A stretch of DNA of 64,000 bases. Source: a virus. Every line of letters starts with the position of its first letter. Position 1 is the first letter of the stretch. Below, one piece after another: positions 14,914 through 59,052 of this stretch. Under the pieces are notes generated by a model, which saw nothing but the letters and a program-made list of their open reading frames with translations, ran no database searches and was not told the DNA's origin. The stretch is from the IMG/VR virus record IMGVR_UViG_3300043787_000193, positions 7,230 to 71,229 of that record; one strand, written 5' to 3'. The translations under genes were made by a program, and so were the position numbers.

Positions 14914-17900
14914 TTATTGCGCGACCAGTTCGGATTGCGCCGGCGCTGGGCTCTGCCAGCTATAGCGGGCGCGGGCCTTCTTCTGGGACAAAATCTTTTC
15001 GAGCATCTTGATCTCGTGCTCGTCTTTGTCTTTGCGCGCGGCTTCCAGAACTTTTTCGGTCTCGGCGATCGTGAAGTTGTGCACCATGTCTTCGAGGGGG
15101 TCTAACTTGGCGCGATGTTCGAGGCTCAAAATCTGGCGGTGTGTCAGTTCGCGCTTGGCTTCGGCGTCTTTCAAGGGCTGGCGGTTGCCCTGGCGCAACT
15201 GGTCGAGGATCTCGCGGCGCTCCACGCGACTCTTGTGATCTTCCGGATACTCGGCTTCAGTGCCTACTTTCGCGGCGGCGATGTCTCCCGCAACTTTCTC
15301 GGCGCGGGTTTTCCCGAACTGCACCCCCGCCTGCTGCCAGAAGAATTTCTTTTTCTGTGCAGTGGTCTCGGCGCGTTCGTATTGCCCGACCTGTCCGAAG
15401 TCTCCGAGCAGGTAGTGCGCGAGTTGCTGATACTGGATGTCCCAAGGGGCGTGCGGGTCGTAAATTTGGTGCCCGGAAAAGAATTCCCGGTTGAGCGCCA
15501 ACTCTGCCGCGCCTTTGGAGAACGGGGAAGGGGTCACCACTTTCTGCAACGCGCTCAATACATCCTGTTTGTGCTCGGCAACTTGCGTGGCGGCATCGAC
15601 ATAGCCGGCGGGTCCGGGACGACGCCATCGCGCATGCTTGTCGCCGGTCAACTTCTGCGCGGCTTTGTCGAAGACGTAGGGGAAGAGAACCATAGTGATC
15701 AACCCCAGCATGGCAAGGCGGTCCCAGCCTTTGCCGACTTCTTCCGCCTTGGTACGCCCAGCAGAAGGGGTCTGCGCGCCCAAGGCGGATTTCGCGCTTT
15801 CCGCGAAACTCTTCAGCAGGCCGTAGTGATACGCTCCGAACCAACTGATGAGCGGATTGCCCATGATCTTCGAAGCGGCGCGGCTGTCGGCGATGCGCGA
15901 GGGCAGGCGATATTCGGGGATGATCTTGCCCACTTCCTTGAAAGCGTCCGAGAGGGAAGTTCCGGGGTGTTCCGACTGGTACTGGTAGGCCGCCTGCAGA
16001 TACATCACGTCGGAAGAGAACCAGGCCGCGATCGAGGAAGGCTTGTGCAGCAAGTTCAGCAGGTTCCCATGCTCGATGCCGAGCGCTTCCGCGATCTTCA
16101 TGGCCCAGTGTTCTTTTTTGTCGAGGCCTTCGGCAAGCCGGTCGAAGAATAGTTTGTGGATGTCCTTCAGGTCTTCGCGGTGGGATTGCAGGGCGGCGCC
16201 GGCGTCGAGCGCGTCGAGGAAGTCCTGATTCTTTTCGAGCACGGCTTTCACTGCTTTGCCGCCCGTCTTGTAGATTGATTTCCACTTCCACGGGGCAAAA
16301 CCGCTCAATCCCTTTTCGAAGCCCCAGCTTGCCGCGACGTTCAGCGGGTGGACGATGGGGTTGATCAGGTAGGCCGCGCGCAGGAACTTTTGTACGGTTT
16401 CCAGAACGCCAAATTGTCCCTTGTCTAATCTCTCGGCGTAGTCATTCAGCACTTCGGCGGTGCGGGGCTCGAAGTAGTAGCCGCGGAACTGGGGTAGAGT
16501 GGTGGTCTTCCAGCCTTTGGGCGGATTGCCGGTTCCGTTCCACGCTACTTCTTTGAATTCCGGGGAGGCTTTGTAGGCGTTGAGGAAGCGCAGGGCATCG
16601 ACAGCCGAGCCAAGTTGTACGTTGGACGCAAAGAGAGAGGCGAACAGCGAGTGATAGTACTCCAGTTCGGTGTTGGCTTCGATCTCCTTAGTGGTAGCCT
16701 GCGTCACTTTCCAGTCGTAGCCGTCCGGCCCTTCCACGATCTTTCCTTTTTCGTAGAAGACAGAATTCGGCTCGCCCTCGGGGAAGGTTTCATTCTCGAC
16801 CGGCGAGCGGCCTTTGGCGTTTTTCACAGCGCCTAGCTCCGTGGGTTCGCCGTTCACCCACATGGTTGCTTTACCGTCTTTGATCGAGATCACGCGCCGT
16901 TCGTCACCGTCCGGGGATTCAATCGCCATCATGGTGCGGGTTTTGGTCTGGGGGGCGGATTTCGAGAGAGTCCCTCTGGTCCCGACAGCTTTCACGCCGC
17001 GGGCGATGCGGTCCAGCATGCCGCCTTTGCCTTTCACTGATCGCGAGACGTAGTTCTCGATGGGGATGCCGCCGTCGGTTAACTCTTCGAAATACTCCGT
17101 GTTCTGCTCATCGAGCGGCAGGGCCACGTCGTCGAACCAATCATCCTGGCGCGCGTCGAGTTGCACGTTCTCGGGGTCTTCCTTGTGATCGTAGAGAACG
17201 GCATCGGAAGCGTGAGTCAGTCCTTGCTTCTTGAGTTTCTCGAAGGCGTCTTTCGCCCGGAGAATGCGCGCCTGTTTTCGAGTGTCAAGGGTTTCGAGGC
17301 CGCGTTGTAAGTTGCGCGCGAGTTCGGTCGCGCGATTGACTTCCCGCACGTAGTTACCGATCGTGCCGGCGGCCTCGGCCACGGCTTTTGCGAGTTCACC
17401 GGGGCGGGCTTCGCCGGATTCATCCTTGATCAGCCGGCCCAGCACGGAATCGCCGCTCTCTGGTTCGTCTTCTCCCTGATCGGCGCTGGCGTCGATGTCG
17501 GAAGCGATTTCCTGTTCGTGCGCCGCCTGAAATTCGTCGTTGCCAAGACGCTGGTTGACTTCGCGCAATTCGCGGCGGCCTTCAGTCAGTTCCTTGGTGT
17601 CGAAGGCTTTCTCTTCTTTCGCGAGTTCTTCAAGGCGGGCGACGCGATCGCGGCGGAACTTGATTGCCCCTTCCATCTCTTCAATGGTGTGCGGCAGGTT
17701 GCGCAGAACGTGTTCTGCTGATCGAACCACAGAGGAGAGGGTTGTTTCGGGGGCGGTATATGTCCCGTTCGAGAGTCCGTCGATGCCTTCTGGCCCCCTG
17801 TGTTCTCCGACTCCCGCGCCGCCCCATGAGCGGTAGATGGTGGGGTAGGGAAGCCGGTATTCGAGGTATTCAACCTGCCCCTCGCTCAATTTTCCGCTTT

Positions 17901-20900
17901 CTTTGCGGTCTCTTAGATAGTCGTTGATGCCCTTTGTCGGGTTCTTCTTCAGGAATTCGGCGAGGTGGTCGCTACTGTCGCCCTGCTTGAGTTTGGGCTC
18001 AACGATGATTGGTAGCCCGTTCAGCTTGAGGTGTAGATTGGAAAGAGGGGTTTCCTGCTTTTCCAGCCACTCGTTTGCTTTGGTCCGGTCATCAAACTTC
18101 TGCCCGAGAATGTCGAGGCTGAAGGTTTTTCCGTCCGCGCCTGTGGCTTCGCGGTAGTTGGCCGCCGCCTGCTCCATCGAGGCTTTGCCCGCCTTGAAGC
18201 GTGCGATGCGGTTCTCTTCGCTTTCGATCAGCCCTTGCCGTTGCCGCGCCTGGGCATCGTGCTGCTCGGATAGAATCTCCTGTTTGCGAATCTTTGCTTC
18301 CAGTTCCATCTTCCGCTTTACGTCGGGGTTGCCGGAGGCGATGGCCTTCATTTCTTCGTAGGAGAGAACGGCGTCCGAGGCGGCGTCGGTGATGGTGTCG
18401 CCCACGTCCTTGCCGGCGAGCGCCTGCCAGATGAATTTCGCTTTCCCCTCGAGCGTCTGCCCCATGTAGGCATCGAAGGAGTGCTCGGTTGCGTACCAGT
18501 AGAGCCGGACAACGGGGTTAGTGTTGCCCTGGCGCTCGATGCGACCGGTGCGCTGCTCCAGTTCGCCCGGCTTCCACGGGAAATCTACGTGATGCTCGGC
18601 GATGAGCCGCCGCTGTGCGTTGGTCCCCGCGCCCATCTTCTGCGTCGAACCCAGCAGGACGCGGACCTTGCCCTCGTTGACTTCATCGAACAGGGCGAGT
18701 TTCTTTTCCGGGTTGTCGTAATCGTGGATGATGGCGATTTCGTTTTTCGGAATCCCTTGCTTCACCAGCAGATCGCGGATCTCGTGGTAGAGATTGAATT
18801 CTTCTTTCTTGGTCGCGGGGTTGGTGTAGCGGAAGCGATCGGCGAAGATCATTTGCGTGACCTTGTTGGCTTCGCCGTCTTTATATTCCCGAACTACGTT
18901 CTTGACCACATCGTGAATCTTTGAGTACTGCCCGGAGGCCTTCGGATCGAGCAGGCGCGGATCGGTCGCCGCCAGCCGCCCCTCGGTGACCACCGAGAGC
19001 ATGTTGTCTTCCTCCGGCTTCGGCTTCGGGAAGTACTCCATCTTCACGCGCTTGCCCACCTTGCCGGTCTTCGGGTCGGTGTATTCCTCCATCACGGGCT
19101 TCCCGGCGTCGTCGAGCACGGGAACGCCTTCTCCGCGGATCGCCGCGGCGCGCCGGACCAGGTTGCGCACAATCGGTTCGATGTCGGGGTTCTTGACGCT
19201 CACCATCTTCGGCCCGCCGCCTTCGATCTTCGGCAGCAGGGCTTTTAATTCCGGCAAGTCCTCATTGGTCTTCACGTCGGCGAAGGAGTTGAACATCCGT
19301 TGCAACTCTTGCACGTTGGTGAATTCGGCGAACTTGGAGCGGGGTTTGTAGCTCTCGGCGTCGGGCGAGAGTTCCATGGCGGTGATGATCTTGCCGAAGT
19401 TGGCGGCCCAGTCGTCGAAGTATTTGATCCCGGCCTTTTCGAGCACGTCCGGGGCGACGTAGCGAATCATGTTGTACATCTCCGCCATGGTGTTCTGCAC
19501 CGGGGTGCCGGTCGCGAAGTACACGCCGCGGTTGTTGTTGCGGTCGAGAAGGTAGTCCGTCTTCATCTTCAGCCGCGTGGCGCGTTTTGCGTTGCCCTGG
19601 GCGAGGCCGGCCACGCGCTGCATCTTGGTGTAGAACAGCAGATTCTTGTATTCGTGGGCTTCGTCCACGAACAGAGTGTCGATGCCGGTATCGTCGAAGT
19701 TGATGGCCTTGTCTGATTTCAGGTTGGCGAGCGAGGCGATCTTCGCCTCCAGATTGGCCTTTGCCTTCTCCATCTGTTTCACTGAACGCTTGTGCGCGCG
19801 ACTGGAGGCCTTGTCCCGGTTGCCGCGGCCCTGCGCTTCCATGCCTCGAATCGTTTCTTCCAGTTCGTCGAGGTCCTTTTCGAGCGTCTTGCGCTGGCGC
19901 TCGGCGGAAATATCCATCAGGTTGAAATGGGAGTGGGGCATGATGATGGCGTCCCAATCGTTGTTCGCCATCTTTGCCATCGCGATCTGCCGGTTCTTCG
20001 CGCTGAAATCGTCTTTTCCTACCACCATGACGTTCGCGCCGGGGTAGAGCTTCGACCAGTCCCGCGCCCACTGCTCGACCAGGTGATTCGGGACGGCGTA
20101 AAGAATCTTCTTGGCAAGCCCCAACCGCCGCAACTCGGCTCCGCTCGCGATCATGTTGTAGGTCTTGCCCGCGCCGACGACTTGCGCGATCAGGCCACGG
20201 CCCTGCTGCACGTTGCGCCAGATTCCATCTCGCTGGTGGGGCATGAACTGACTATTGCGCAGCACTGCCAGATTCGCGCCGGGGAAGGTCAGGTGTGCGC
20301 CGTCCGCCTTCGGTGCGACCAGATTGTTGTATTTGTCGTTGAACAGGCGCGCCAGTTGCGGAGACCACTCGCGGTGATCCTTCATCCACTTCGAGAAGTT
20401 GTCGCTGAGTTTCTCTTGCAGTTCGCGGGCGGCGACGGTGCGCTTCTGATTCACCACGCGCCGCTCTGCGGTTTTCCCCTCGTCGTTGATGTAGGTTTGC
20501 AGATCGTAGGAAGTCGGCTGTTTCAGGTTCAGCGCCAGCTCCATCAGATCGGTCGCGGAGAATTCGGCGTTCCCGTATTGGCTGATGTTCTCCGCCGACT
20601 CGCGCGTGTTGTCGATCTTCCAGGTGCCGCCGACGCTTGAAACCTTCACGTCATAGGGTTGCTTCAGGAAGTCGTTCAGGAATTGCTGGGTGGCTTCGGT
20701 GGGAATCCACGTCGCTCCCGGCCGCACGGCGATGCGCTCGATAGGCTTGTCGGGAGGGATGACCTTTTCGAGGGCCTCCACATTGGCCTGATATTCTTTG
20801 GCTCCTTGCGCGACGGCCGCTTTCGCGTCGGCGAGTTTGTCGCGCACGTAGCCCGAGAGATAGTCGTCGGCCATCTTGTAATCGCCGCCGACTGGATCGC

Positions 20901-23900
20901 GGAAGACCAAGCCCTTATCCAGCAACTCCTTTGCGACTTCAGCGAGATCCTTGCCGGCGAGCTGTGCCATGAACTCCAGGTCGGGCCGGCCACGTTCGTT
21001 GAGCACCTGAAAGAGCGCGTCTTTCGGGTTGGAGGAGAGTGAAGTTGCGGTCAACTGCTCGCGCGGGAAGATGGTGCGCCGGGTGAAGATTTCCGCCGGT
21101 GTGGTTCGCTTGGTGGTCTTGTTGAATTGTTCCAGGGCCGCGAGGCGCGGGTAGTACGGGTCTTGCCCGAAGACGTTCGCCGCCGCGGGGCTGCGCACCA
21201 GGCCGTGCTTGTCGAGGTAGGTTTTGTAATCCTTCAGCAAAGCCTTCTGCTTCTGGGCCACGATGCTGTTCCCGATGTCGTCGTTGGGAACGGTTTTCAT
21301 GGTGTACATCAGATCGGTGAGGGTGTCGCGCAGCTTGATCAGCTTCTTGACTCGATCCACAAACACCGGAGACGTTCCGCCTTCCTTGGCGCGGATGTTC
21401 GGCGGGTTCAGCAGAGTCCCACCGTTGTGCTTCTGGCGGACCTCGCCCTTGTCGTCAAGGAAGTAGTTGCCGTCGATCAGGTGCTCGGGGGCGAGGTTCA
21501 AAGTCTCAGCCGGGAATAGTCGCGTGGATTTGTAATCGTCGATGACGTTCTTCGGCACGCGCTCCAGGGCTTCCTTGAGTTGATCTTCGAAGGGCTTCTC
21601 TTTATCCGGCAGCAGCACGAGATCGTTCGAGCCGTACATGCGGCGCGAGATGGCGAGTTTGCCGAGCATGTTCTCGGGGTGCTTATTGAAGTACTCGTTC
21701 AGAAAATCCTTCGCCATGCCGCCGTCTTGCTCGTGCGGGGCTTCGACGGGAACGACCTTGGTGAAAGGCTGGCCTTCGGACTCAACCCCTGGCGCGCGCT
21801 TTTGAAAGATCAGCAAATCGGTGGTGACGTGGGTGCCGGCGGTCTTCTCGAATGTCGTAGCAGGGAAGCGAAGGGCAAATACCAGATCGGCCTTATTCGC
21901 CATGACCTCCCGGATGCGCTCGTTCGGTTTATCGAGTGTGCCGGTTGAGGAGATCAGCGCCGCCACTCCGCCGGGCCGCAATTTGTCGAGAGACTTCACG
22001 ATGAAGTAATCGTGGATGCGCGCCTTCAGCTTGGGATAGTGCGGGTCAAAGATTTCCTCCCCGAACGGAACGTTGCCGATCACCATGTCAATGGAGTTGT
22101 CCGGCAGCATGAGATCGACGAAGTTCTTGTTAAACAGGTTCGCCGAGGGATATAGCAATTTTGCGATGTTGAACGTGGTCGGGTCGAGTTCATTGCCGAT
22201 GGCCTGGCTCTTACCGCGGATCGCCTTCGGCATCGTCCCAAAGAAGTTCCCGCTACCCATCGAGGGCTCTAACAACGTTCCGCCCGTGAAGCCGAGCCGC
22301 TTGGCGGCGTCCCACATGAAGCGCGTGATCTGCGGGGAAGTGAAGTGGGCGTTGATGGTCGAGGCGCGGGCGCGCGTGATCTCGTCCGGAGTCATCAACT
22401 CTTTGAGTTGGTTGTGGGCTTCGATCCACTTCTTCTGTTCGCCGTAGGGAGAATCGTAGGGACGGAAAGCGTGCGGCAGTGCGCCCCAGCCCACGTAGTG
22501 CGCCAGAGCATCACGGTCTTCGTCGGTGAGTTTGATTTCGCCGGCGAGAACTTTCTTGAGGATGTTAAGGGCTTTGAGATTCCACGCGAGGCGTTGCGTG
22601 TTGCCGGCGGCGACCGAGAAATCTTCCGGATGAGTGAACCAGTCGGCGTTCTTGCGAGTGGCTACGCCTTCTGTTCTTCGAGTTCCGCGTCCTCCGGCAG
22701 TCTCTCCGACGGCAGGAATAGGTGTTCGTTCGCCAGTTCCTGTGCCTGGTCGAGGCTCAACCCCTTCTTTTCCGCTTCCTGCAACACGCGGACTGCGTTC
22801 TCCGCCGCGTTGTCCAGGCGTGGATTCAACTGATTGCTCCGTTCGAGCGACTTCACCAGCTTGGGGTTCCACTCGCGCCAGTTCCGCTCCGCGTCCGCTC
22901 TCAGGACTGGGAACCTCGCGTCTTCCTTCGGTGGTAGGCTGAGGTTGTTCATGGCCTGCTCCGGGCTCTATTTTAGCCCCGTTGGGAGCGGTTGGCGCAA
23001 GATTTTCTTTTGTGGGCTCTACCGCTTGGCCGCGGAAGGTGAAGGGGTGTTTCTTACGGTAGGCCTGCTCTTTCTGCAACATCGCCAGTTCTTTTTGCAG
23101 GGCTGGAACCGTGGCCGCGCGATTCGGATTCGCAATGTGAGCCTCAACCTGCGCCGCCCGTTTCGCGATAACTTCGTCGCTGGCTTTCTGGATCGGATGC
23201 CAGTCTCCCTTAAAGAAGAAGCCTTTCTCGTGACCCTGTTCCATCTCCGGAGTGTGTTCTGCCGCCGCCGGCTTCGCTTCCGCATTCCTAGTGTCGATCC
23301 AGTCTTCAGCTTCTGCGCGGGTTTTGAATCCGGTTGCAACCGTTTTCGTTGGCCCAGAGGTGTCGATAACGTTGAAGCCAGCGCCAACACCCGGCATTGC
23401 CACTTCGTATTGTGGCTTTTCGGTGACCGGAGTCGCAGCAATGCCGCCCTCTTCGGTCGGGGTGATCTCGTGTTTCTGCCAGGAGAATTTCGGCTTGGGC
23501 TTTTCTGCGACAGCGACGCCTTCATCCTTAGGTCGCTCGAAGGCTTCCAGATTCTCAAGCTTGATATTCTCGACGTGGCCGCTGAGTTCTTCGCTGCCGT
23601 GCCCAACGTAGCGTTCCACTGTGGCTGATTTCGCGTCGGAGTCAACGATCTTGCCGTGGCGCACGGTGCCGCTCTTATCGGTCCAGCGAACAGGCTGCCC
23701 GTCTTTGAACTTCGGCCCCCCACCCTTCCCAACTCCCGCTCCCACAAACGTCGGCAGCCCATAAGAGTAGTTCGGCTCGACTTGCGGAGTGACGGGCTTC
23801 TTCGGTTTCTCCAGCGCGATCTCCGGCATCTTCATCCCCGCCGCCGTGCCGCGCTTCGTCATAAACGACTTGATCGGCGACATCGCTTTCGCGAGAGCCT

Positions 23901-26900
23901 CTTCGGTCGCGAGCTTCGGACTCTGAATTAAATCCATCAGGGATTGCGCTGCGTGCGCGGGCGCTTTCCAGTAGGGCCATCCGTCGCTGTGGGAATCGAC
24001 TTCTTCGACAAATTCTTTGAGGAACTTTGTGGCCTTGCCGAGTACGGGATGTTTGGCGAATCGTTCTACGGCTTCATCCACATCCCAGCGGTTCAGCCAG
24101 TGGCCGTGGGGGATTTCGACCGGTCGCGTCTCGCCGGCGCCCGACGACTGATCCGTCGTTTCCTCCGGCGCAGGCGACGGCTTCGCTCTCCACGATTCCC
24201 GTCGCGGGGCGGGCTTGCCCTCCAGCTTGACCATTTCCTGCGATCCATCTTTTTTCGAGATGGCGATTTCTGAGACCGTGAACTTCTTTCCCTTGGTGAC
24301 ATCCATCCCCACGTAGCGATCCGCTTTCGCTGGATCCACGTAAGCCACCGTTGCGTGCGGTTTGTACTCTTTGAACGAGGGTTCGGCGAAGTCTCCGTGC
24401 TTTTCGAGGTCCGCGTTCAGGCGATGCAACTCTGGGGCAACGATTGGCGCGATGATCGGGGCAGAGCCTTCGGAGTGTTCGCTGACGGGGAATTTCTCGG
24501 TCGGGCCGAGCGACGCCTCAAACGGAGCTTGTTCGGAGAGGAACTTGCGGACGCCTTCGGTATCTTCCCCTTGAATCCCATATCTGACGGTAACGTGATT
24601 GCCGCCGTCCCCAATTTCTTTTCCCTTACCCGCGAGGTCGGAGTCCGAGATGCGAGAGCGCGCCGATTCTAGGGCTTTCGCCGCTTCGGATTCGGCGGGG
24701 ATGTTGGCCTGAGTGGAACCAAATTTGTACTTCGGGGTTTCAGCTTCAGCAACTTTCGCAATTTGCGCTGGTTCTCCGGGCGGCTGAGGATGTCCGCTAC
24801 CGCTGGGTCGTCCAGCAGTTTCAGCAGGGATTCCGCCTGCTCCGCTCGGCTCACGAGGCGGAAGGGCAGTTGAAACGGTTTCATTGGCTGGGGTTTTGGC
24901 GGGTTCCGCAACCGCTCCAGATACAACTCGTTGCACCGCTCCACCGTTAGGTCCACGATCTGCTGTATTGTGATCTGCGCCATTTCCCGATTCTACTTTC
25001 TTCCCCGGTTCAACCGCTCCCCCTTTTTCTCGTCCGCTTCTGGTGATGAATCCCCCCGGCTTCGGCTTCTCTCCCAACTCCATTTCCAAGTTGCGGGAGT
25101 GGGTGACGACGACCGGCTTTTCCCCCTTAGCGACTAACGCTTCGACATCCTTCAATGCCGCATCTTGCCGCTCGCGGGCCTGATTCCACGTTTCGCCGCC
25201 TTTCGGAAGCTGGTCAGGGTTCTGCTCGTAGGAGTTCCAGATGGGAGTAGCTTCGCCGACCTTTAGGCCTTCGGTTTCCGGAACGTGCTGCGGGCGGAGG
25301 CGAGAATCTTCTTGGACCGGTATTCCTAATTGCTTGCCGACGATGTCTGCGGTCTGTCGGGCGCGGGGTAAATCGCTGGTGATGATCACTGTCGGCTTTT
25401 GCTCTTGGATGCCCGCAGCGAGCTTCTGGGCGGCGGCTCGGCCCCGTTCGTCAAGGGGTTCGTCCGTCCAGCCGGCTACGGTCTCGTTCGCCCCCGCCTG
25501 GTCGAGTTTGGTTTCCCCGTGGCGGGCGAAGATGATGGAGCCTTTGGTGACGTCAGATTGGGCGACTTGTTCTACTGCGGGTGCGCTGGCTCGTCCTGAA
25601 TTCTCTGGAGTTCCTTCGCCGAGATGAACCACCCCTGACTCGCCAGCGCTTCCGAGATTTCCTGTTTCGTTCGCGGGTCGCGTGCTAACGCCGCGCGCAG
25701 TTCCTTGTTCGTCCTGATGAAGTCCCCTGCGTCCATTCGGGAGGCCATTTTCTTGAGTGCCGCTCTGAGCCGCTCGTGCACTTCCATTGCCCGATTCTAC
25801 CTCCGCCCTCTTCACCGCTCCCCATTTTTCTGCCGGGACACTGGCTTTTCCCCCACCATCGAGCGCCACACGAATCAGTCTTGAATTGGCGTGGGCAACC
25901 GTTCCAGTATCGCCCTTCGGTAGGACAACCCGATCTCCGACTGCAAATGCTTGCGATGGCTTCCCCGGTTCCTGAGTTGATTCGTCGAGCGTAAATCCGG
26001 CGGGAGGGGCGGGAACTGGTTCTGCGGCTGCTTTCTTTGCTTGCGCGTCTTGCCGGCCGATTTCTTCATTGATCAACCTCTGGGCCAAAGTCTCCGCTTG
26101 TTTCTGGTTGCGCACGATCTCGACTTTGCCGTCGATGGTGAGCTTGCCCTGGTTCAATAATTCTGTGGCGAGGGCGGTGTGTGCCGCGAGCGTCGCCTGC
26201 GGCCGCTCTTCGTGCGGAAGTTTCGCGATCTTGTCCCCGATGTCCGCGATCTCGTCCATGCTGATCGAGTGCATGGGTTGGACTTGGCCAGGTAAGGCAA
26301 GAGGAGGTTCTCCGGGCTGACGCGGGGCGGGCGGCGGAGGTGTCGGGCTGAAGCGTCCGGCACGTCGCAGAATGTCGGCTGAATGGTTGAGGTTTGTCAT
26401 CTCCTCCATGTGTGCCGGATTCACGTCGGGGTGAAGATTGAAAGCCGCAGCACGGTGAGCTGCGTTGAATTGCTCAAGCGCCGGTTCTGCAGGAAGATCG
26501 ACGCCTGTGTAGTTGTAGACCAGGTTCCGGAACAGTGCTTCAGCTCGAGGAACGCCTTCGGGGGGAAGGGCTTCGTAGGGCTTGCCATGCAGGGCGGGAC
26601 TGAGTAACAGCGCTCCTACTCCGGTTTGTGCGCCGAGTTCCGCGCGCTGCTCGGGCGTCATCTCATCCCAGTGCTCGTAGAGATTCTGGGCTCCCTCTGC
26701 GGTCTGCAATCCGATTTGGCCCCGGAAGCCTACGGACATCAGTTTTTGCAACAAGGGCCGGGCCGCACTGCTGGCGAAGAACGGCCACATGCGCGGATCA
26801 GCTACAACGCCGCCAGCCATTTCTCCAGCACCTTTCAACACCCCCTGCTCGACCGGATGTTCCTCTTCGGCTTCTGCGGTCAATTGGGCGAATGGGGTAG

Positions 26901-27381
26901 AGTTCTGCGCCGCCGGATAATCGGCAGGCGGCGCTCCAGTGTGTGCAGCGGCAGTGTAAGGCGCTGCCGCTCCGAATCCTTTGGCCAATTCTCCGCCCGC
27001 TTTCGCACCTGCCTGCGCCGCGCGAACCGGAAGCTGCACAACCTTATTGGCGGTGGCGAGGGCGGGCATCACAGATTGCGGGACAGCTTCACCCCCGCCC
27101 GTTCCCGTGGTAGCGGCTTCGAGCAAGTCGAGAGCGCCCTCCTTACCCTTGACGATCTGCGCCTTCGGCGGCGGCGTGCTGAAATCAAAATTACTTTTCG
27201 CCTCGGGTATCGTCCCGCTCCAACTCGGTCGCCGTTGGTTCATCGTCACAGGCACAGACGGAGTTGCGCCTGTATCCGCATCCAGCGCAAAGCCTTTCGG
27301 CGGCGGCGGCACTGCCCCCGAAGAGTCGTCGTCTAAGACGAAACCCTTCGGAGGCGCCGGGATGTCCTGAACTTCAGGCAA
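14914..27381 (-). CDS. Giant DarB-like polyvalent virion protein (J-like, His-phosphatase, 2H phosphoesterase, N6-MTase, SNF2 helicase)
   Basis: LHPDVNP; ARHGET...VTH; HVTV/HATV; LLEPSMGSGNF and GNVPF; VGAGKT, DEAH, ATGTP, QRTGRIERQGN. Confidence 0.9.
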   Translation of the reverse strand: MPEVQDIPAPPKGFVLDDDSSGAVPPPPKGFALDADTGATPSVPVTMNQRRPSWSGTIPEAKSNFDFSTPPPKAQIVKGKEGALDLLEAATTGTGGGEAVPQSVMPALATANKVVQLPVRAAQAGAKAGGELAKGFGAAAPYTAAAHTGAPPADYPAAQNSTPFAQLTAEAEEEHPVEQGVLKGAGEMAGGVVADPRMWPFFASSAARPLLQKLMSVGFRGQIGLQTAEGAQNLYEHWDEMTPEQRAELGAQTGVGALLLSPALHGKPYEALPPEGVPRAEALFRNLVYNYTGVDLPAEPALEQFNAAHRAAAFNLHPDVNPAHMEEMTNLNHSADILRRAGRFSPTPPPPAPRQPGEPPLALPGQVQPMHSISMDEIADIGDKIAKLPHEERPQATLAAHTALATELLNQGKLTIDGKVEIVRNQKQAETLAQRLINEEIGRQDAQAKKAAAEPVPAPPAGFTLDESTQEPGKPSQAFAVGDRVVLPKGDTGTVAHANSRLIRVALDGGGKASVPAEKWGAVKRAEVESGNGSARAAQSGTQENGLPNGRRGLHQDEQGTARGVSTRPANETGNLGSAGESGVVHLGEGTPENSGRASAPAVEQVAQSDVTKGSIIFARHGETKLDQAGANETVAGWTDEPLDERGRAAAQKLAAGIQEQKPTVIITSDLPRARQTADIVGKQLGIPVQEDSRLRPQHVPETEGLKVGEATPIWNSYEQNPDQLPKGGETWNQARERQDAALKDVEALVAKGEKPVVVTHSRNLEMELGEKPKPGGFITRSGREKGGAVEPGKKVESGNGADHNTADRGPNGGAVQRVVSGAVAEPAKTPANETVSTALPPREPSGAGGIPAETAGRPSGSGHPQPPGEPAQIAKVAEAETPKYKFGSTQANIPAESEAAKALESARSRISDSDLAGKGKEIGDGGNHVTVRYGIQGEDTEGVRKFLSEQAPFEASLGPTEKFPVSEHSEGSAPIIAPIVAPELHRLNADLEKHGDFAEPSFKEYKPHATVAYVDPAKADRYVGMDVTKGKKFTVSEIAISKKDGSQEMVKLEGKPAPRRESWRAKPSPAPEETTDQSSGAGETRPVEIPHGHWLNRWDVDEAVERFAKHPVLGKATKFLKEFVEEVDSHSDGWPYWKAPAHAAQSLMDLIQSPKLATEEALAKAMSPIKSFMTKRGTAAGMKMPEIALEKPKKPVTPQVEPNYSYGLPTFVGAGVGKGGGPKFKDGQPVRWTDKSGTVRHGKIVDSDAKSATVERYVGHGSEELSGHVENIKLENLEAFERPKDEGVAVAEKPKPKFSWQKHEITPTEEGGIAATPVTEKPQYEVAMPGVGAGFNVIDTSGPTKTVATGFKTRAEAEDWIDTRNAEAKPAAAEHTPEMEQGHEKGFFFKGDWHPIQKASDEVIAKRAAQVEAHIANPNRAATVPALQKELAMLQKEQAYRKKHPFTFRGQAVEPTKENLAPTAPNGAKIEPGAGHEQPQPTTEGRREVPSPESGRGAELARVEPQAGEVARTEQSVESTPGQRGGERSPRVAGSGKEGVEPRPGTGTGERTPIPAVGETAGGRGTRRTEGVATRKNADWFTHPEDFSVAAGNTQRLAWNLKALNILKKVLAGEIKLTDEDRDALAHYVGWGALPHAFRPYDSPYGEQKKWIEAHNQLKELMTPDEITRARASTINAHFTSPQITRFMWDAAKRLGFTGGTLLEPSMGSGNFFGTMPKAIRGKSQAIGNELDPTTFNIAKLLYPSANLFNKNFVDLMLPDNSIDMVIGNVPFGEEIFDPHYPKLKARIHDYFIVKSLDKLRPGGVAALISSTGTLDKPNERIREVMANKADLVFALRFPATTFEKTAGTHVTTDLLIFQKRAPGVESEGQPFTKVVPVEAPHEQDGGMAKDFLNEYFNKHPENMLGKLAISRRMYGSNDLVLLPDKEKPFEDQLKEALERVPKNVIDDYKSTRLFPAETLNLAPEHLIDGNYFLDDKGEVRQKHNGGTLLNPPNIRAKEGGTSPVFVDRVKKLIKLRDTLTDLMYTMKTVPNDDIGNSIVAQKQKALLKDYKTYLDKHGLVRSPAAANVFGQDPYYPRLAALEQFNKTTKRTTPAEIFTRRTIFPREQLTATSLSSNPKDALFQVLNERGRPDLEFMAQLAGKDLAEVAKELLDKGLVFRDPVGGDYKMADDYLSGYVRDKLADAKAAVAQGAKEYQANVEALEKVIPPDKPIERIAVRPGATWIPTEATQQFLNDFLKQPYDVKVSSVGGTWKIDNTRESAENISQYGNAEFSATDLMELALNLKQPTSYDLQTYINDEGKTAERRVVNQKRTVAARELQEKLSDNFSKWMKDHREWSPQLARLFNDKYNNLVAPKADGAHLTFPGANLAVLRNSQFMPHQRDGIWRNVQQGRGLIAQVVGAGKTYNMIASGAELRRLGLAKKILYAVPNHLVEQWARDWSKLYPGANVMVVGKDDFSAKNRQIAMAKMANNDWDAIIMPHSHFNLMDISAERQRKTLEKDLDELEETIRGMEAQGRGNRDKASSRAHKRSVKQMEKAKANLEAKIASLANLKSDKAINFDDTGIDTLFVDEAHEYKNLLFYTKMQRVAGLAQGNAKRATRLKMKTDYLLDRNNNRGVYFATGTPVQNTMAEMYNMIRYVAPDVLEKAGIKYFDDWAANFGKIITAMELSPDAESYKPRSKFAEFTNVQELQRMFNSFADVKTNEDLPELKALLPKIEGGGPKMVSVKNPDIEPIVRNLVRRAAAIRGEGVPVLDDAGKPVMEEYTDPKTGKVGKRVKMEYFPKPKPEEDNMLSVVTEGRLAATDPRLLDPKASGQYSKIHDVVKNVVREYKDGEANKVTQMIFADRFRYTNPATKKEEFNLYHEIRDLLVKQGIPKNEIAIIHDYDNPEKKLALFDEVNEGKVRVLLGSTQKMGAGTNAQRRLIAEHHVDFPWKPGELEQRTGRIERQGNTNPVVRLYWYATEHSFDAYMGQTLEGKAKFIWQALAGKDVGDTITDAASDAVLSYEEMKAIASGNPDVKRKMELEAKIRKQEILSEQHDAQARQRQGLIESEENRIARFKAGKASMEQAAANYREATGADGKTFSLDILGQKFDDRTKANEWLEKQETPLSNLHLKLNGLPIIVEPKLKQGDSSDHLAEFLKKNPTKGINDYLRDRKESGKLSEGQVEYLEYRLPYPTIYRSWGGAGVGEHRGPEGIDGLSNGTYTAPETTLSSVVRSAEHVLRNLPHTIEEMEGAIKFRRDRVARLEELAKEEKAFDTKELTEGRRELREVNQRLGNDEFQAAHEQEIASDIDASADQGEDEPESGDSVLGRLIKDESGEARPGELAKAVAEAAGTIGNYVREVNRATELARNLQRGLETLDTRKQARILRAKDAFEKLKKQGLTHASDAVLYDHKEDPENVQLDARQDDWFDDVALPLDEQNTEYFEELTDGGIPIENYVSRSVKGKGGMLDRIARGVKAVGTRGTLSKSAPQTKTRTMMAIESPDGDERRVISIKDGKATMWVNGEPTELGAVKNAKGRSPVENETFPEGEPNSVFYEKGKIVEGPDGYDWKVTQATTKEIEANTELEYYHSLFASLFASNVQLGSAVDALRFLNAYKASPEFKEVAWNGTGNPPKGWKTTTLPQFRGYYFEPRTAEVLNDYAERLDKGQFGVLETVQKFLRAAYLINPIVHPLNVAASWGFEKGLSGFAPWKWKSIYKTGGKAVKAVLEKNQDFLDALDAGAALQSHREDLKDIHKLFFDRLAEGLDKKEHWAMKIAEALGIEHGNLLNLLHKPSSIAAWFSSDVMYLQAAYQYQSEHPGTSLSDAFKEVGKIIPEYRLPSRIADSRAASKIMGNPLISWFGAYHYGLLKSFAESAKSALGAQTPSAGRTKAEEVGKGWDRLAMLGLITMVLFPYVFDKAAQKLTGDKHARWRRPGPAGYVDAATQVAEHKQDVLSALQKVVTPSPFSKGAAELALNREFFSGHQIYDPHAPWDIQYQQLAHYLLGDFGQVGQYERAETTAQKKKFFWQQAGVQFGKTRAEKVAGDIAAAKVGTEAEYPEDHKSRVERREILDQLRQGNRQPLKDAEAKRELTHRQILSLEHRAKLDPLEDMVHNFTIAETEKVLEAARKDKDEHEIKMLEKILSQKKARARYSWQSPAPAQSELVAQ
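22662..22952 (-). CDS. Nested +1-frame gene, TnpV/DUF1896-like helical protein
   Basis: TAAAAT box and GGAG RBS upstream; NWREWNPKLVKSLERSNQL...AQELANEHLFLPSE; host frame is low-complexity over this span. Confidence 0.7.
   Translation of the reverse strand: MNNLSLPPKEDARFPVLRADAERNWREWNPKLVKSLERSNQLNPRLDNAAENAVRVLQEAEKKGLSLDQAQELANEHLFLPSERLPEDAELEEQKA
24669..24983 (-). CDS. Nested +1-frame gene, small helical protein
   Basis: TAGAAT-6 nt-ATG; L/E/K/Q-rich sequence while the host frame is G/A/P/E-rich linker. Confidence 0.6.
   Translation of the reverse strand: MAQITIQQIVDLTVERCNELYLERLRNPPKPQPMKPFQLPFRLVSRAEQAESLLKLLDDPAVADILSRPENQRKLRKLLKLKPRSTNLVPLRPTSPPNPKRRKP
25572..25787 (-). CDS. 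Nested +1-frame gene, small helical protein
   Basis: GGAGG-TAGAAT-6 nt-ATG; MEVHERLRAALKKMASRMD... Confidence 0.6.
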   Translation of the reverse strand: MEVHERLRAALKKMASRMDAGDFIRTNKELRAALARDPRTKQEISEALASQGWFISAKELQRIQDEPAHPQ

Positions 27382-30470: not shown

Positions 30471-30550
30471 GCTAGAGTTTGCTTATGTCGATTGCTGCTG
30501 CCGACCGCTCATGCTAGAGTTTGCTTATGTCGATTGCTGCTGCCGACCGC
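30464..30550. repeat. 42-bp perfect tandem duplication
   Basis: cgctcatgctagagtttgcttatgtcgattgctgctgccgac at 30464 and 30506. Confidence 0.95.
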
Positions 30551-58903: not shown

Positions 58904-59052
58904 TTTGGTTTGTCCTTTTGTTTTTTCCATCGAGCCTGAACAGCGCGACGGGCGGAATCGGAACGTTCCTTTGGGGAGAGCTTACTGTTTGTGGCTTTGG
59001 CTCCGCGCTTGCCGAGTTTCGAGAGGTACTCGCGGACGGGATCAGTTTTCAC
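58900..59052 (-). CDS. Small basic putative DNA-binding protein (50 aa, not in ORF track)
   Basis: MKTDPVREYLSKLGKRGAKATNSKLSPKERSDSARRAVQARWKK; TGA overlaps the next ATG. Confidence 0.7.
   Translation of the reverse strand: MKTDPVREYLSKLGKRGAKATNSKLSPKERSDSARRAVQARWKKQKDKPK

What the first reader, a model, noticed from the sequence alone, without database searches (positions are those of the whole stretch)
22662..25822. Three small genes nested in the +1 frame of the giant polyvalent gene, each directly upstream of an enzymatic domain
Seen: ORFs 25787-25572, 24983-24669 and 22952-22662 are on the same strand as the 4155-aa gene and all in its +1 frame. They encode L/E/K/A-rich helical-looking proteins exactly where the host frame becomes G/R/E/S/P-rich linker. 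Two have TAGAAT exactly 6 nt before the ATG, the same geometry as free-standing genes at 30527, 38449, 51743 and 59052. The third has TAAAAT plus a GGAG RBS. They precede the His-phosphatase, 2H phosphoesterase and MTase-helicase domains respectively. Inference: these are cassettes of one nested, separately transcribed partner (inhibitor, antitoxin or chaperone) plus one effector domain, which can be added to a virion polyprotein without breaking its frame. Standard gene callers would miss them.
Basis: partly seen in the sequence, partly recalled or inferred. Interest (0 to 1): 0.9.

Follow-up and report, generated by a model that had tools for sequence, protein, structure and literature searches.

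The report
Hidden gene inside giant phage gene
One of the three proposed nested genes is real: a small helical protein is encoded out of frame inside a linker of a giant phage anti-restriction gene, and it sits unannotated at the same spot in many cultured phages; the other two remain unproven.

Summary
The three same-strand +1-frame ORFs exist as described. Their mere existence is not beyond chance: 4 such ORFs of 71 aa or more were observed, against 6.6 expected from codon shuffles.

ORF n3 (22952-22662) is a genuine overlapping gene.
- Substitutions follow its frame, not the host frame, in three independent phage pairs (Fisher p 5e-6, 3e-8, 3.5e-5).
- It folds confidently (pLDDT 82).
- It belongs to a family of 366 database proteins distantly related to TnpV and DUF1896.
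- With its own ATG/GTG, and a Shine-Dalgarno sequence in most loci, it lies in the +1 frame directly upstream of the methyltransferase-helicase module in 5 further metagenomic lineages. The same holds for 8 of 8 cultured-phage 'DarB-like' genes whose frame I could check. No record annotates it.

n1 and n2 have no homologues. They begin in a duplicated junction (TAGAAT-N6-ATG) that the one close relative also has at both junctions, but that relative does not conserve the encoded proteins. n2 shows the same collapse of host synonymous GC3 as validated nested genes (0.30 against 0.75). n1 shows it only weakly.

Separate transcription is not supported: no sigma-70-like promoter was found.

The parts
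14914..27381 (-). Host gene: a 4155-aa polyvalent 'DarB-like' protein. Domains: His phosphatase, 2H phosphoesterase, N6-MTase, SNF2 helicase, and a long C-terminal part.
   Evidence: ORF, translation, Pfam, NCBIfam. The MTase part is homologous to annotated DarB-like genes of cultured phages.
22662..22952 (-). n3: a nested +1-frame gene of 96 aa, TnpV/DUF1896-like. It is a 4-5 helix protein with an acidic C-terminal tail. The coordinates include the stop codon TAG.
   Evidence: Frame-specific substitutions. It is the only place where +1 codon usage beats the host frame. AF2 pLDDT 82. Family of 366 proteins. Conserved nested homologues.
22959..22962 (-). GGAG Shine-Dalgarno sequence, 6 nt before the n3 ATG
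   Evidence: Equivalent GGAG/GAGG/AGGAG/AGGA elements lie 6-9 nt before the start in L008, L011, L006 and 9 cultured phages.
22970..22975 (-). -10-like TAAAAT, 17 nt before the n3 ATG, with no -35 partner
   Evidence: TACAAT sits at the same place in L008 and L002. No full promoter was found.
18502..22661 (-). MTase-SNF2 helicase module of the host protein (residues 1574 to about 2960). It starts at the n3 stop.
   Evidence: Pfam Eco57I, SNF2-rel_dom, ResIII and Helicase_C. Its N-terminus aligns to the host frame just after the nested stop in 12 of 12 other loci.
24669..24983 (-). n2: a +1-frame ORF of 104 aa between the His phosphatase and 2H domains. Candidate nested gene, unproven.
   Evidence: Host 4-fold GC3 is 0.30-0.33 against 0.75 gene-wide, the lowest in the gene. 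The start motif is conserved in L008. No homologues. Atlas gave no hit. AF2 single sequence gave pLDDT 64 and pTM 0.25.
25572..25787 (-). n1: a +1-frame ORF of 71 aa before the His phosphatase domain. Weak candidate.
   Evidence: Host 4-fold GC3 is 0.43-0.44. Only sub-threshold HTH-like Pfam hits. No homologues. Atlas best score 0.79. L008 has an unrelated R/K-rich ORF at this site.
24980..25030 (-). Junction repeat, copy 2. It holds TAGAAT (24995-24990), the N6 spacer and the n2 ATG, and encodes host ...GGAV...VESGNG.
   Evidence: Direct repeats D8 and D12.
25784..25831 (-). Junction repeat, copy 1. It holds TAGAAT (25799-25794), the N6 spacer and the n1 ATG, and encodes host ...WGAV...VESGNG.
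   Evidence: Direct repeats D8 and D12.
25087..25536 (-). His_Phos_1 domain of the host protein (residues 616-765), bracketed by the two junction repeats
   Evidence: Pfam E 1.1e-28
24244..24612 (-). 2H phosphoesterase (2_5_RNA_ligase2) domain of the host protein (residues 924-1046)
   Evidence: Pfam E 2.1e-8

Best explanation
The window is a soil phage genome whose 4155-aa virion-type 'DarB-like' polyvalent gene contains at least one genuine gene within a gene. ORF n3 (22952-22662) is translated from its own Shine-Dalgarno sequence plus ATG in the +1 frame. This happens while the giant ORF reads the same nucleotides as a low-complexity linker.

Shown: n3 encodes a compact, acidic-tailed helical protein of about 11 kDa. 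It belongs to a widespread small-protein family distantly related to TnpV and DUF1896. It is under purifying selection, stronger than on the host frame. It keeps the same position and frame, directly 5' of the methyltransferase-helicase module, across phages whose upstream cargo domains differ.

Inferred: n3 is the older reading frame. A small partner gene once stood just before a separate MTase-helicase gene. It was 'swallowed' when upstream cargo domains became fused to that enzyme by reading through the small gene in its -1 frame. The product most likely acts in trans on the MTase-helicase, as a subunit, chaperone or regulator of the DarB-like anti-restriction enzyme.

n2, and less so n1, may be lineage-specific further cases that start at a duplicated TAGAAT-N6-ATG junction. 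For them only composition and start-motif conservation speak, so they remain unproven.
For: Substitution pattern.
- Window vs L008 codon alignment: in the 97 host codons under n3, differences at host positions 1/2/3 are 16/4/7. In the other 2578 codons they are 285/174/1046 (Fisher p 4.9e-6). Host position 1 is the n3 wobble position.
- Host amino-acid differences are 18 of 97; n3 differences are 11 of 96.
- Replicates: Pavtok vs PEp14 16/10/11 inside against 23/16/139 outside (p 3e-8). LASTA vs SopranoGao 9/2/2 against 10/6/55 (p 3.5e-5).

Coding potential.
- n3 is the only stretch of the 4155 codons where +1 codon usage beats the host frame.
- GC by codon position is phase-shifted to +1.

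Fold and family.
- AF2 with 8 sequences: pLDDT 82.2, pTM 0.70.
- Profile search: 366 proteins at E<=1e-3 and 33 at E<=1e-10, mostly 85-115 aa.
- Of 58 members scanned, 4 hit TnpV (best 4.3e-7) and 4 hit DUF1896 (best 7.9e-4).
- Best structural match in two methods is 2apl/PG0816: Foldseek prob 1.0; VIA Z 8.4, next 6.6.

Nested +1 homologues.
- They have an ATG/GTG start, an open host frame and the MTase module right after, in L008, L011, L002, L013 and L006.
- In cultured phages the match is +1 of the annotated giant CDS in 8 of 8 records checked: Pavtok, PEp14, LASTA, SopranoGao, VvAW1, POI1126, Atu_ph08, Mwe-JY07.
- A family HMM built from database proteins hits all of them at 1e-6 to 1e-36 among 1934 six-frame ORFs.

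Host 4-fold GC3 as a detector.
- The deepest minimum in L013, L006 and L002 is exactly the nested ORF: 0.26/0.89, 0.35/0.85 and 0.24/0.76.
- In the window the three lowest windows are n2 0.30, n3 0.33 and n1 0.44, against 0.75 gene-wide.
- L008 keeps TAGAAT-N6-ATG at both junctions, with all variation in the spacer.
Against: Against or limiting n3.
- There are no expression data of any kind; no RNA run holds the stretch.
- n3 itself does not reach any Pfam, NCBIfam or PHROG threshold. DUF1896 scores 12-14 bits against a cut-off of 25.
- A Z of 8.4 is within what helical bundles can reach by chance, according to the tool's own note.
- At deep divergence, global identity does not separate the frames. 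The nested-frame score exceeds the host-frame score in only 32 of 55 locus pairs.
- L002 and L013 lack a clear Shine-Dalgarno sequence, and L011 and L013 start with GTG.
- In PBC5 the homologous segment is in frame with the annotated upstream CDS, so a fused form may exist.
- The genomic context of the 366 database homologues could not be seen. The ten clusters looked up sit on contigs of 1-4.7 kb, so 'free-standing ancestor' is an inference.
- The partner function is inferred from position alone.

Against n1 and n2.
- No homologue in any search.
- Low ESM recognition.
- The protein is not conserved in L008.
- ORF lengths are within chance.
- No -35 element.
- The shared start motif lies in a direct repeat encoding VESGNG.
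Confidence: 0.85

Rival explanations
1. All three ORFs are chance open frames. In a 59% GC gene whose linker codons start with G, the +1 frame automatically reads NNG codons (L/E/K/A/R) and has few stops.
For: The number and length of +1 ORFs are within the codon-shuffle null: 4 observed against 6.6, sd 1.9. A 247-aa junk-like +1 ORF exists. n1 and n2 have no homologues. Other low-complexity host stretches also score near zero in the codon-usage test.
Against: For n3 this is excluded by frame-specific substitutions in three lineages, by a 366-member family, by the confident fold, and by conservation of frame, start and position across at least 13 phage lineages. For n2, host 4-fold GC3 of 0.30 is as low as in validated nested genes and far below ordinary linkers at 0.50-0.57.
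Confidence: 0.03
2. n1 and n2 are not genes. TAGAAT-N6-ATG is a by-product of a duplicated module junction whose host-frame peptide (x-V-E-S-G/A-N/H-G/A) is what is conserved. That peptide could be a linker boundary or a head-protease cleavage site that releases the His-phosphatase and 2H domains. The protease-site idea is my own inference.
For: The two sites are copies of a direct repeat bracketing the linker plus His_Phos unit. VES is kept in 4 of 4 sites in the window and L008 while the downstream +1 products are unrelated (n1) or alike only in the first ~16 residues (n2). There is no -35 and there are no homologues.
Against: All four sites use the rare codons GTA (9% of Val) and AAT/CAT (28% and 17%). 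All variation falls in the 6-nt spacer: 4 of 6 spacer positions vary, 0 of 9 motif positions vary. The geometry matches leaderless starts of free-standing genes in this phage. Host GC3 collapses over n2 and over the L008 site-2 ORFs.
Confidence: 0.5
3. n3 is not a separate protein. It is a domain of the giant protein, or of a shorter isoform, reached by programmed ribosomal frameshifting. A +1 shift would give an N-terminal part that ends with the n3 domain, as annotated in phage PBC5.
For: In PBC5 the homologous segment is in frame with the annotated upstream CDS, which ends at its stop. The downstream frame is open across it. The BFVD best fold match (TMq 0.71) is a piece of a long viral protein, Q8W6J4_2. 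Some database homologues carry the domain at the C-terminus of 314-342 aa products.
Against: An ATG/GTG start sits at the family's N-terminus in all 16 loci, and most have a Shine-Dalgarno sequence 6-9 nt upstream. Most family members are 85-115 aa. I saw no slippery heptamer at either end in the window (reading). The PBC5 record is old and may hold a frameshift error (my assumption).
Confidence: 0.07
4. The constraint over n3 is on nucleic acid, such as an RNA structure, a packaging signal or a recombination signal, and not on a protein.
For: Overall substitution is reduced in the region: 27 differences per 97 codons, against roughly 50-60 elsewhere.
Against: Variation has three-base periodicity in the n3 phase. 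Homology is detectable at protein level down to ~25-30% identity where the DNA is not alignable. The product folds.
Confidence: 0.02

Closest known systems
Embedded spanin genes Rz/Rz1 of phage lambda and relatives (Rz1 lies wholly in the +1 frame of Rz). The class is mentioned for phage JC1 in passages of PMC9144972; the lambda details are recalled.
   Same: A small phage gene lies entirely inside a larger one, on the same strand, in the +1 frame, with its own start. Both products are thought to work together.
   Different: Here the host gene is a >4000-aa multidomain virion protein. The overlap is confined to an inter-domain linker. The embedded frame looks like the older one, and its product is a cytoplasmic helical protein rather than a lipoprotein.
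TnpV (Pfam PF14198) and DUF1896 (PF08989; PDB 2apl, PG0816 of Porphyromonas gingivalis)
   Same: A small all-helical protein of mobile elements. 4 of 58 family members hit each model. 2apl is the best structural match in two methods and the first natural protein by profile-sequence search, at E 0.53.
   Different: n3 itself is below every curated threshold. The family forms its own group with the consensus RF..L.A.AE.HW....PK....L...G.L. No function is known for TnpV or DUF1896. That DUF1896 genes sit next to methylase-helicase genes in Bacteroides elements is recalled, and also stated in note e1-6181464. It was not tested.
DarB of phage P1 and 'DarB-like antirestriction' / polyvalent proteins (Iyer et al. 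2017, PMC5512222)
   Same: The host gene has the MTase plus SNF2 helicase core and extra effector domains in one giant virion-type protein. Its MTase part aligns to annotated DarB-like genes at E 1e-61 to 1e-86.
   Different: The P1 darB region holds no family member in any frame, and P1 ulx lies downstream of darB. A term search of the polyvalent-protein paper found no TnpV, DUF1896, overlapping or frameshift.
Overprinting in viruses (review PMC8227390; seen in a search listing only)
   Same: Two proteins come from one stretch of DNA. One frame is ordered and widely conserved; the other is disordered and young-looking.
   Different: The usual model creates a new small ORF inside an old gene. 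Here the evidence points the other way: a gene fusion created a new linker frame across an old small gene.

Membership tests
Functional overlapping (embedded) protein-coding gene | Purifying selection in the alternative frame (substitution periodicity in that frame) | tested here: met
   n3 and its homologues show it in three independent pairs: p 4.9e-6, 3e-8 and 3.5e-5. It could not be tested for n1/n2, whose linkers are not alignable in L008.
Functional overlapping (embedded) protein-coding gene | The ORF, its start and its frame are conserved across divergent relatives | tested here: met
   n3: 5 further metagenomic lineages and 8 of 8 checked cultured-phage CDS have it in +1. The host frame has 0 stops and the third frame has 6-9 stops. 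n1/n2: only the start motif is kept in L008.
Functional overlapping (embedded) protein-coding gene | Direct evidence of translation (Ribo-seq, peptides) | not testable with these tools
   No RNA run was listed. No proteomic data are accessible.
TnpV (PF14198) | Score above Pfam gathering threshold (27 bits) | tested here: not met
   n3 has no hit, and the virus record has no match at E<=0.01. 4 of 58 family members hit at up to 4.3e-7. This is a distant relation only.
DUF1896 (PF08989) | Score above Pfam gathering threshold (25 bits) | tested here: not met
   n3 scores 13.9 bits at E 0.059 and 12 bits at E 0.008 within its own genome. 4 of 58 family members hit, best 7.9e-4.
DUF1896 (PF08989) | Same fold as the solved member 2apl | tested here: inconclusive
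   2apl is the top hit in Foldseek (prob 1.0, E 0.31, TMq 0.55). It is also top in VIA (Z 8.4, rmsd 2.9, 79 aligned, next 6.6). The tool warns that helical bundles reach such Z by chance. That 2apl represents DUF1896 is recalled.
DarB-like / polyvalent protein (host gene) | N6-MTase plus SNF2-type helicase in one giant polypeptide with additional effector domains | tested here: met
   Pfam Eco57I, SNF2-rel_dom, ResIII, Helicase_C, His_Phos_1 and 2_5_RNA_ligase2. Homology to annotated DarB-like CDS.
Leaderless gene (-10 hexamer, about 6-7 nt, start codon) for n1/n2 | -10-like TANNNT placed 6 nt before ATG | tested here: met
   TAGAAT-N6-ATG is present at n1 and n2 and at both orthologous junctions of L008.
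Leaderless gene (-10 hexamer, about 6-7 nt, start codon) for n1/n2 | A complete promoter (-35 or extended -10) and a mapped 5' end at the ATG | tested here: not met
   No sigma-70-like promoter in 22500-26000. There is no TTG at 16-18 nt and no TGn (reading). 5' ends are not testable.

The most novel reading that the evidence does not exclude
Every 'DarB-like' giant anti-restriction gene of this large phage group hides an unannotated, obligatory small subunit gene in the +1 frame of the linker before its MTase-helicase. More generally, inter-domain linkers of polyvalent proteins are 'swallowed genes': small partner genes overprinted when neighbouring effector genes fused. On this reading n2 and n1 are younger, fast-evolving, leaderless examples paired with the 2H and His-phosphatase effectors.
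Probability: 0.3. Interest if true: 0.9.

Novelty: new variant of a known kind. Interest (0 to 1): 0.8.

Why it matters
A conserved gene has been missed in all 21 cultured-phage records that matched (about 12 phages). These include phages of Erwinia, Klebsiella, Vibrio, Agrobacterium, Ochrobactrum and Microcystis.

The gene sits inside the largest gene of these phages, a virion protein thought to defeat host restriction. Any genetic or structural study of that protein would also hit the hidden gene without knowing it.

It also gives a clear natural case where a gene fusion read through an intervening gene and turned its alternative frame into a linker. This is a route to overlapping genes opposite to classic overprinting.

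It gives the function-less TnpV/DUF1896-like proteins a concrete, testable partner. It can be tested at once in cultured phages.

The host 4-fold GC3 dip is a simple detector for further such genes.

Tried and rejected
Co-folding. n3 (alignment A4) was co-folded with host residues 1574-2400 (alignment A5). Result: no verdict, score 0.00. This is not evidence either way.

Expression. No RNA holder was listed for 22600-25900.

Laying DNA contigs of 4 runs. This showed only identical strains and an L008-like variant. The difference table was cut (357 rows not shown), so no population-level test was possible.

The ten clusters looked up sit on contigs of 1-4.7 kb.

Scans for relatives.
- Metagenome scan with the MTase part: nothing.
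- Metagenome scan with A1: 2 loci.
- Genome-contig scans with A2 and A1: nothing.
- Plasmids: n3 gave no match. The POI1126 nested ORF hit only one POI1126-like record. The idea that free-standing family genes precede methylase-helicase genes in conjugative elements therefore stays untested.

n1 and n2.
- No homologues among 5.8 billion clustered proteins, in IMG/VR contigs or in cultured phages. One chance-level hit at E 0.4 was found for n2.
- No PHROG at E<=0.01, and only sub-threshold Pfam hits for n1.
- ESM Atlas recognition 1970 and 1682, best score 0.79 or none.
- AF2 of n2 alone: pLDDT 63.6, pTM 0.25, inconclusive.
- n1/n2 are not paralogues of n3.

Other leads.
- Phage P1: no family member around darB, and ulx lies downstream of darB.
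- Longer family members (10 proteins): no Pfam domain.
- Global identity of host against nested frame is uninformative at deep divergence, 32 of 55 pairs. The linker-2 alignment of window against L008 is carried by its conserved ends in all frames.
- The 9-mer GGGAGCGGT (note e1-6181465) occurs 4 times against 0.94 expected. It is part of the junction repeat, is inverted before n3, and is absent from the L008 junctions. I do not treat it as a regulatory site.

Literature. No mention of a nested gene was found in the following:
- the searches 'DarB + antirestriction + overlapping', 'PLxRFG' (83), 'DUF1896' (90), 'TnpV' (80), 'DarB-like/nested/overprinting/embedded gene/out-of-frame' (93) and phage names (126);
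- passages of PMC9144972, PMC5512222, PMC6630229 and PMC3558961.
Gill et al. 2011 (PMC3187461) is not held. Supplements were not opened. Both may bear on the novelty claim.

Full report
WHAT IS THERE. The window is part of an IMG/VR virus record of 71,229 bases, rated 94% complete. GC is about 59%.

On the minus strand, ORF 27381-14914 encodes 4155 residues. Pfam finds His_Phos_1 (616-765, E 1e-28), 2_5_RNA_ligase2 (924-1046), an Eco57I-type MTase (about 1740-1837), SNF2/ResIII (2391-2581) and Helicase_C (2876-2952). NCBIfam adds only related phosphatase and helicase models.

The three ORFs of the finding exist at the stated coordinates. All are in the +1 frame of this gene:
- n1: 25787-25572, 71 aa.
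- n2: 24983-24669, 104 aa.
- n3: 22952-22662, 96 aa.

IS THE OBSERVATION MORE THAN CHANCE? As ORFs, no. The giant gene holds 7 ATG-started +1 ORFs of at least 60 aa, 4 of them at least 71 aa. Among these is a 247-aa one with a junk-like R/S/K-rich product. Shuffling codons within 150-codon blocks gives 6.6 (sd 1.9) ORFs of at least 71 aa.

The L/E/K/A-rich look is also partly automatic. Where host codons begin with G, the +1 frame reads NNG codons (my reasoning).

TAGAAT-N6-ATG occurs only at n1 and n2. Both lie in one imperfect direct repeat that brackets the linker plus His-phosphatase unit and encodes host VESGNG. Position 59052 has only TATCGT-N6-GTG. The geometry is therefore real for three of the four, but the hexamer is not TAGAAT. 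The looser pattern occurs 11 times against 6.5 expected. No complete sigma-70-like promoter is found in 22500-26000.

n3 IS A REAL GENE: SELECTION. A related viral contig (L003/L008/L009) encodes a 3942-aa homologue. It is 84% identical over residues 1397-4155 and 58% over 370-1075. There the n3 ORF is intact and 88.5% identical.

In a codon alignment of 2675 codons, differences at host positions 1/2/3 are 285/174/1046 outside n3 and 16/4/7 inside (Fisher p 4.9e-6). Host position 1 is the wobble position of n3, so the periodicity has jumped to the n3 frame. The host peptide changes at 18 of 97 residues and n3 at 11 of 96.

A codon-usage likelihood trained on the phage's long genes finds n3 to be the only place in 4155 codons where the +1 frame beats the host frame.

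n3 IS A REAL GENE: FOLD AND FAMILY. AlphaFold2 with only 8 aligned sequences gives pLDDT 82.2 and pTM 0.70, a 4-5 helix domain plus an acidic tail.

A profile of 8 nested sequences (A3) was run against 1.84 billion representatives. It finds 366 proteins at E<=1e-3 and 33 at E<=1e-10, mostly 85-115 aa. Their consensus is RF..L.A.AE.HW....PK....L...G.L...L..A...A...L......GL..DQA.E.A......P.E.

Of 58 members scanned, 4 hit Pfam TnpV (best 4.3e-7) and 4 hit DUF1896 (best 7.9e-4). n3 itself stays below threshold.

The best structural match in both Foldseek and VIA-align is 2apl (PG0816). VIA gives Z 8.4, rmsd 2.9 and 79 residues aligned, with the next hit at 6.6. By profile sequence search 2apl is the first natural protein, at E 0.53.

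I therefore call the family a distant relative of TnpV/DUF1896, not a member. My tests agree with the family link. Its claim about Bacteroides elements remains untested.

CONSERVATION OF THE NESTED ARRANGEMENT: METAGENOMIC LOCI. Searching with the MTase part is unbiased with respect to n3. That search, and searches with n3 itself, brought in several loci:
- L011: 46% identical by tblastn, a 90-aa +1 ORF, GGAGG-8-GTG.
- L002: about 30% identical, ATG at the same IEPG(A/T)GH host context.
- L013: GTG start.
- L004/L006/L007: identical to each other, AGGAG-7-ATG.

In each, the host frame is open and the nested ORF ends just before the MTase module. Two further copies, L010 and P0005, are frame hybrids next to unrelated sequence. 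They look decayed.

CONSERVATION OF THE NESTED ARRANGEMENT: CULTURED PHAGES. tblastn of n3 against 50,697 phage records hit 18 records. In 16 of them the match lies under a giant gene annotated DarB-like antirestriction, DNA methylase, PLxRFG, transglycosylase or orf33. The two Itty13 records list an opposite-strand hypothetical protein instead.

The match is in the +1 frame of the annotated CDS in 8 of 8 records with a same-strand spanning CDS that I checked. These are Pavtok, PEp14, LASTA, SopranoGao, VvAW1, POI1126, Atu_ph08 and Mwe-JY07.

Two records differ:
- In PBC5 the segment is in frame with the annotated upstream CDS, which ends at the nested stop. It is +1 relative to the open downstream frame.
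- In Itty13 the annotated CDS is on the other strand, while a same-strand frame is open.

All nine begin MNL(N/Q)xW or MEAFQNW at an ATG. That ATG is preceded by GAGG, GGAG, AGGAG or AGGA at 6-9 nt.

An HMM built from the database proteins (A4) hits all these nested ORFs at 1e-6 to 1e-36 among 1934 six-frame ORFs. It hits nothing else in the window or around P1 darB.

In 12 of 12 loci the host frame aligns to the window's MTase N-terminus. The alignment begins 2-37 residues after the nested stop in 11 of them, and 169 residues after it in PBC5.

The substitution test replicates in two further pairs:
- Pavtok/PEp14: 16/10/11 inside against 23/16/139 outside (p 3e-8).
- LASTA/SopranoGao: 9/2/2 against 10/6/55 (p 3.5e-5).

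A second tblastn with the VvAW1 ORF found 21 records, about 12 phages. None lists a nested CDS.

HOW IT MOST LIKELY WORKS.

Shown: a selected, foldable small protein is encoded in the +1 frame of the linker before the MTase-helicase. It has its own start codon, and in most loci a ribosome-binding site.

Inferred, about 0.7: the nested frame is the ancestral one. It has a wide family and an ordered fold. The host frame over it is low-complexity, less conserved and atypical in codon usage. A fusion of upstream cargo domains to an MTase-helicase gene therefore read through a pre-existing small gene.

Inferred, about 0.5: the product acts in trans on the DarB-like enzyme as a subunit, chaperone, packaging aid or regulator. 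The reason is that its position next to that module is invariant while the upstream domains vary. Examples are His phosphatase and 2H here, a HExxH-containing region in L013 (my reading), and transglycosylase in Pavtok by its annotation.

Translation by internal initiation on the long mRNA is the simplest route. A -10-like TAAAAT/TACAAT lies 16-17 nt upstream in the window, L008 and L002, but no -35 is present.

n1 AND n2: EVIDENCE AGAINST. Neither has a homologue in any search. They are not paralogues of n3. In L008 the two linkers differ.

n1 AND n2: EVIDENCE FOR.
- L008 keeps GTAGAATC...ATG at both junctions. All 9 motif positions are invariant in 4 of 4 sites, while 4 of 6 spacer positions vary. 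This holds despite rare codons: GTA is 9% of Val, AAT 28% of Asn and CAT 17% of His.
- At site 2 the first ~16 residues of the +1 products are similar with conservative changes. At site 1 the L008 product is R/K-rich and unrelated.
- The most telling datum is host four-fold-degenerate GC3. It is 0.75 gene-wide. The three lowest 60-codon windows are n2 (0.30), n3 (0.33) and n1 (0.44, tied with codons 276-335). Ordinary linkers lie at 0.50-0.57.
- L008 shows 0.30 at site 2, 0.30 at n3 and 0.46 at site 1.
- As a control, in L013, L006 and L002 the deepest dip is exactly the validated nested ORF, and the next dips are 0.54-0.67.

n1 AND n2: INCONCLUSIVE TESTS. ESM Atlas and single-sequence AF2 decide nothing.

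My odds that a functional protein is made are about 0.45 for n2 and about 0.25 for n1. The main rival is that the conserved thing is the host-frame junction peptide x-V-E-S.

NOVELTY. Embedded +1 genes are known in phages (Rz/Rz1). A conserved embedded gene in DarB-like or polyvalent genes was not found in the searches and passages listed under Tried and rejected, nor in any of the 21 annotated records. Gill et al. 2011 and all supplements could not be read. I rate it a new variant of a known kind.

VERDICT. One of the three ORFs (n3) is firmly a missed gene, and it generalises to a large group of cultured phages. n2 is a fair candidate and n1 a weak one.

Noticed in passing
window 30473-30529 (+): The promoter-like element and start TAGAGTTTGCTTATG occurs twice, 42 nt apart. 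This is a tandem duplication that includes the first codons of the gene at 30527.
   Followed up: no
L015 (Sinorhizobium phage PBC5, NC_003324.1 24745-27927): The annotated DarB-like CDS ends at the stop of the nested-family segment, which is in frame with it. A downstream frame is open from locus nt 1197 to the end and aligns to the MTase module, yet carries no annotation in this stretch. This is either a real split or a frameshift in an old record.
   Followed up: partly
L018 (Pseudomonas phage Itty13, NC_070969.1 6190-8202): The only annotated CDS over this stretch is on the opposite strand. The strand carrying the nested ORF and an MTase-like open frame is unannotated. This is likely a mis-annotation of the giant gene.
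   Followed up: partly
L013 nt 11671-11850 (host codons 3891-3950): This is a second, shallower dip of host 4-fold GC3 (0.55 against 0.89). Its +1 reading ends ...EVEQARARAQKALEEALKD followed by a stop. It may be another nested coding stretch.
   Followed up: no
L010 (1107-nt metagenome contig) and protein P0005: These copies of the n3 region switch between host and nested frames. L010 abuts an unrelated signal-peptide-like gene. They look like decayed or chimeric remnants.
   Followed up: partly
window 27381 and 27312: Contigs of three runs carry an extra C just behind 27381, at the TTG taken as the start of the giant ORF. A GTG at 27312 is an alternative start. The true N-terminus is uncertain.
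   Followed up: no
window 22972-23809 and 25554-25820: A related strain in soil runs X2/X3 replaces 836 nt of the middle region by 614 other letters. In X3 it also skips the n1 linker. This matches the L008 architecture, so the linkers and the middle domain are swapped as blocks between strains.
   Followed up: partly
window 26374-26553 (host codons 276-335): Host 4-fold GC3 is 0.44 here, as low as over n1. The +1 reading is junk-like and no ATG-started +1 ORF of 60 aa or more lies in this stretch. This shows the limit of the GC3 detector at this level.
   Followed up: partly
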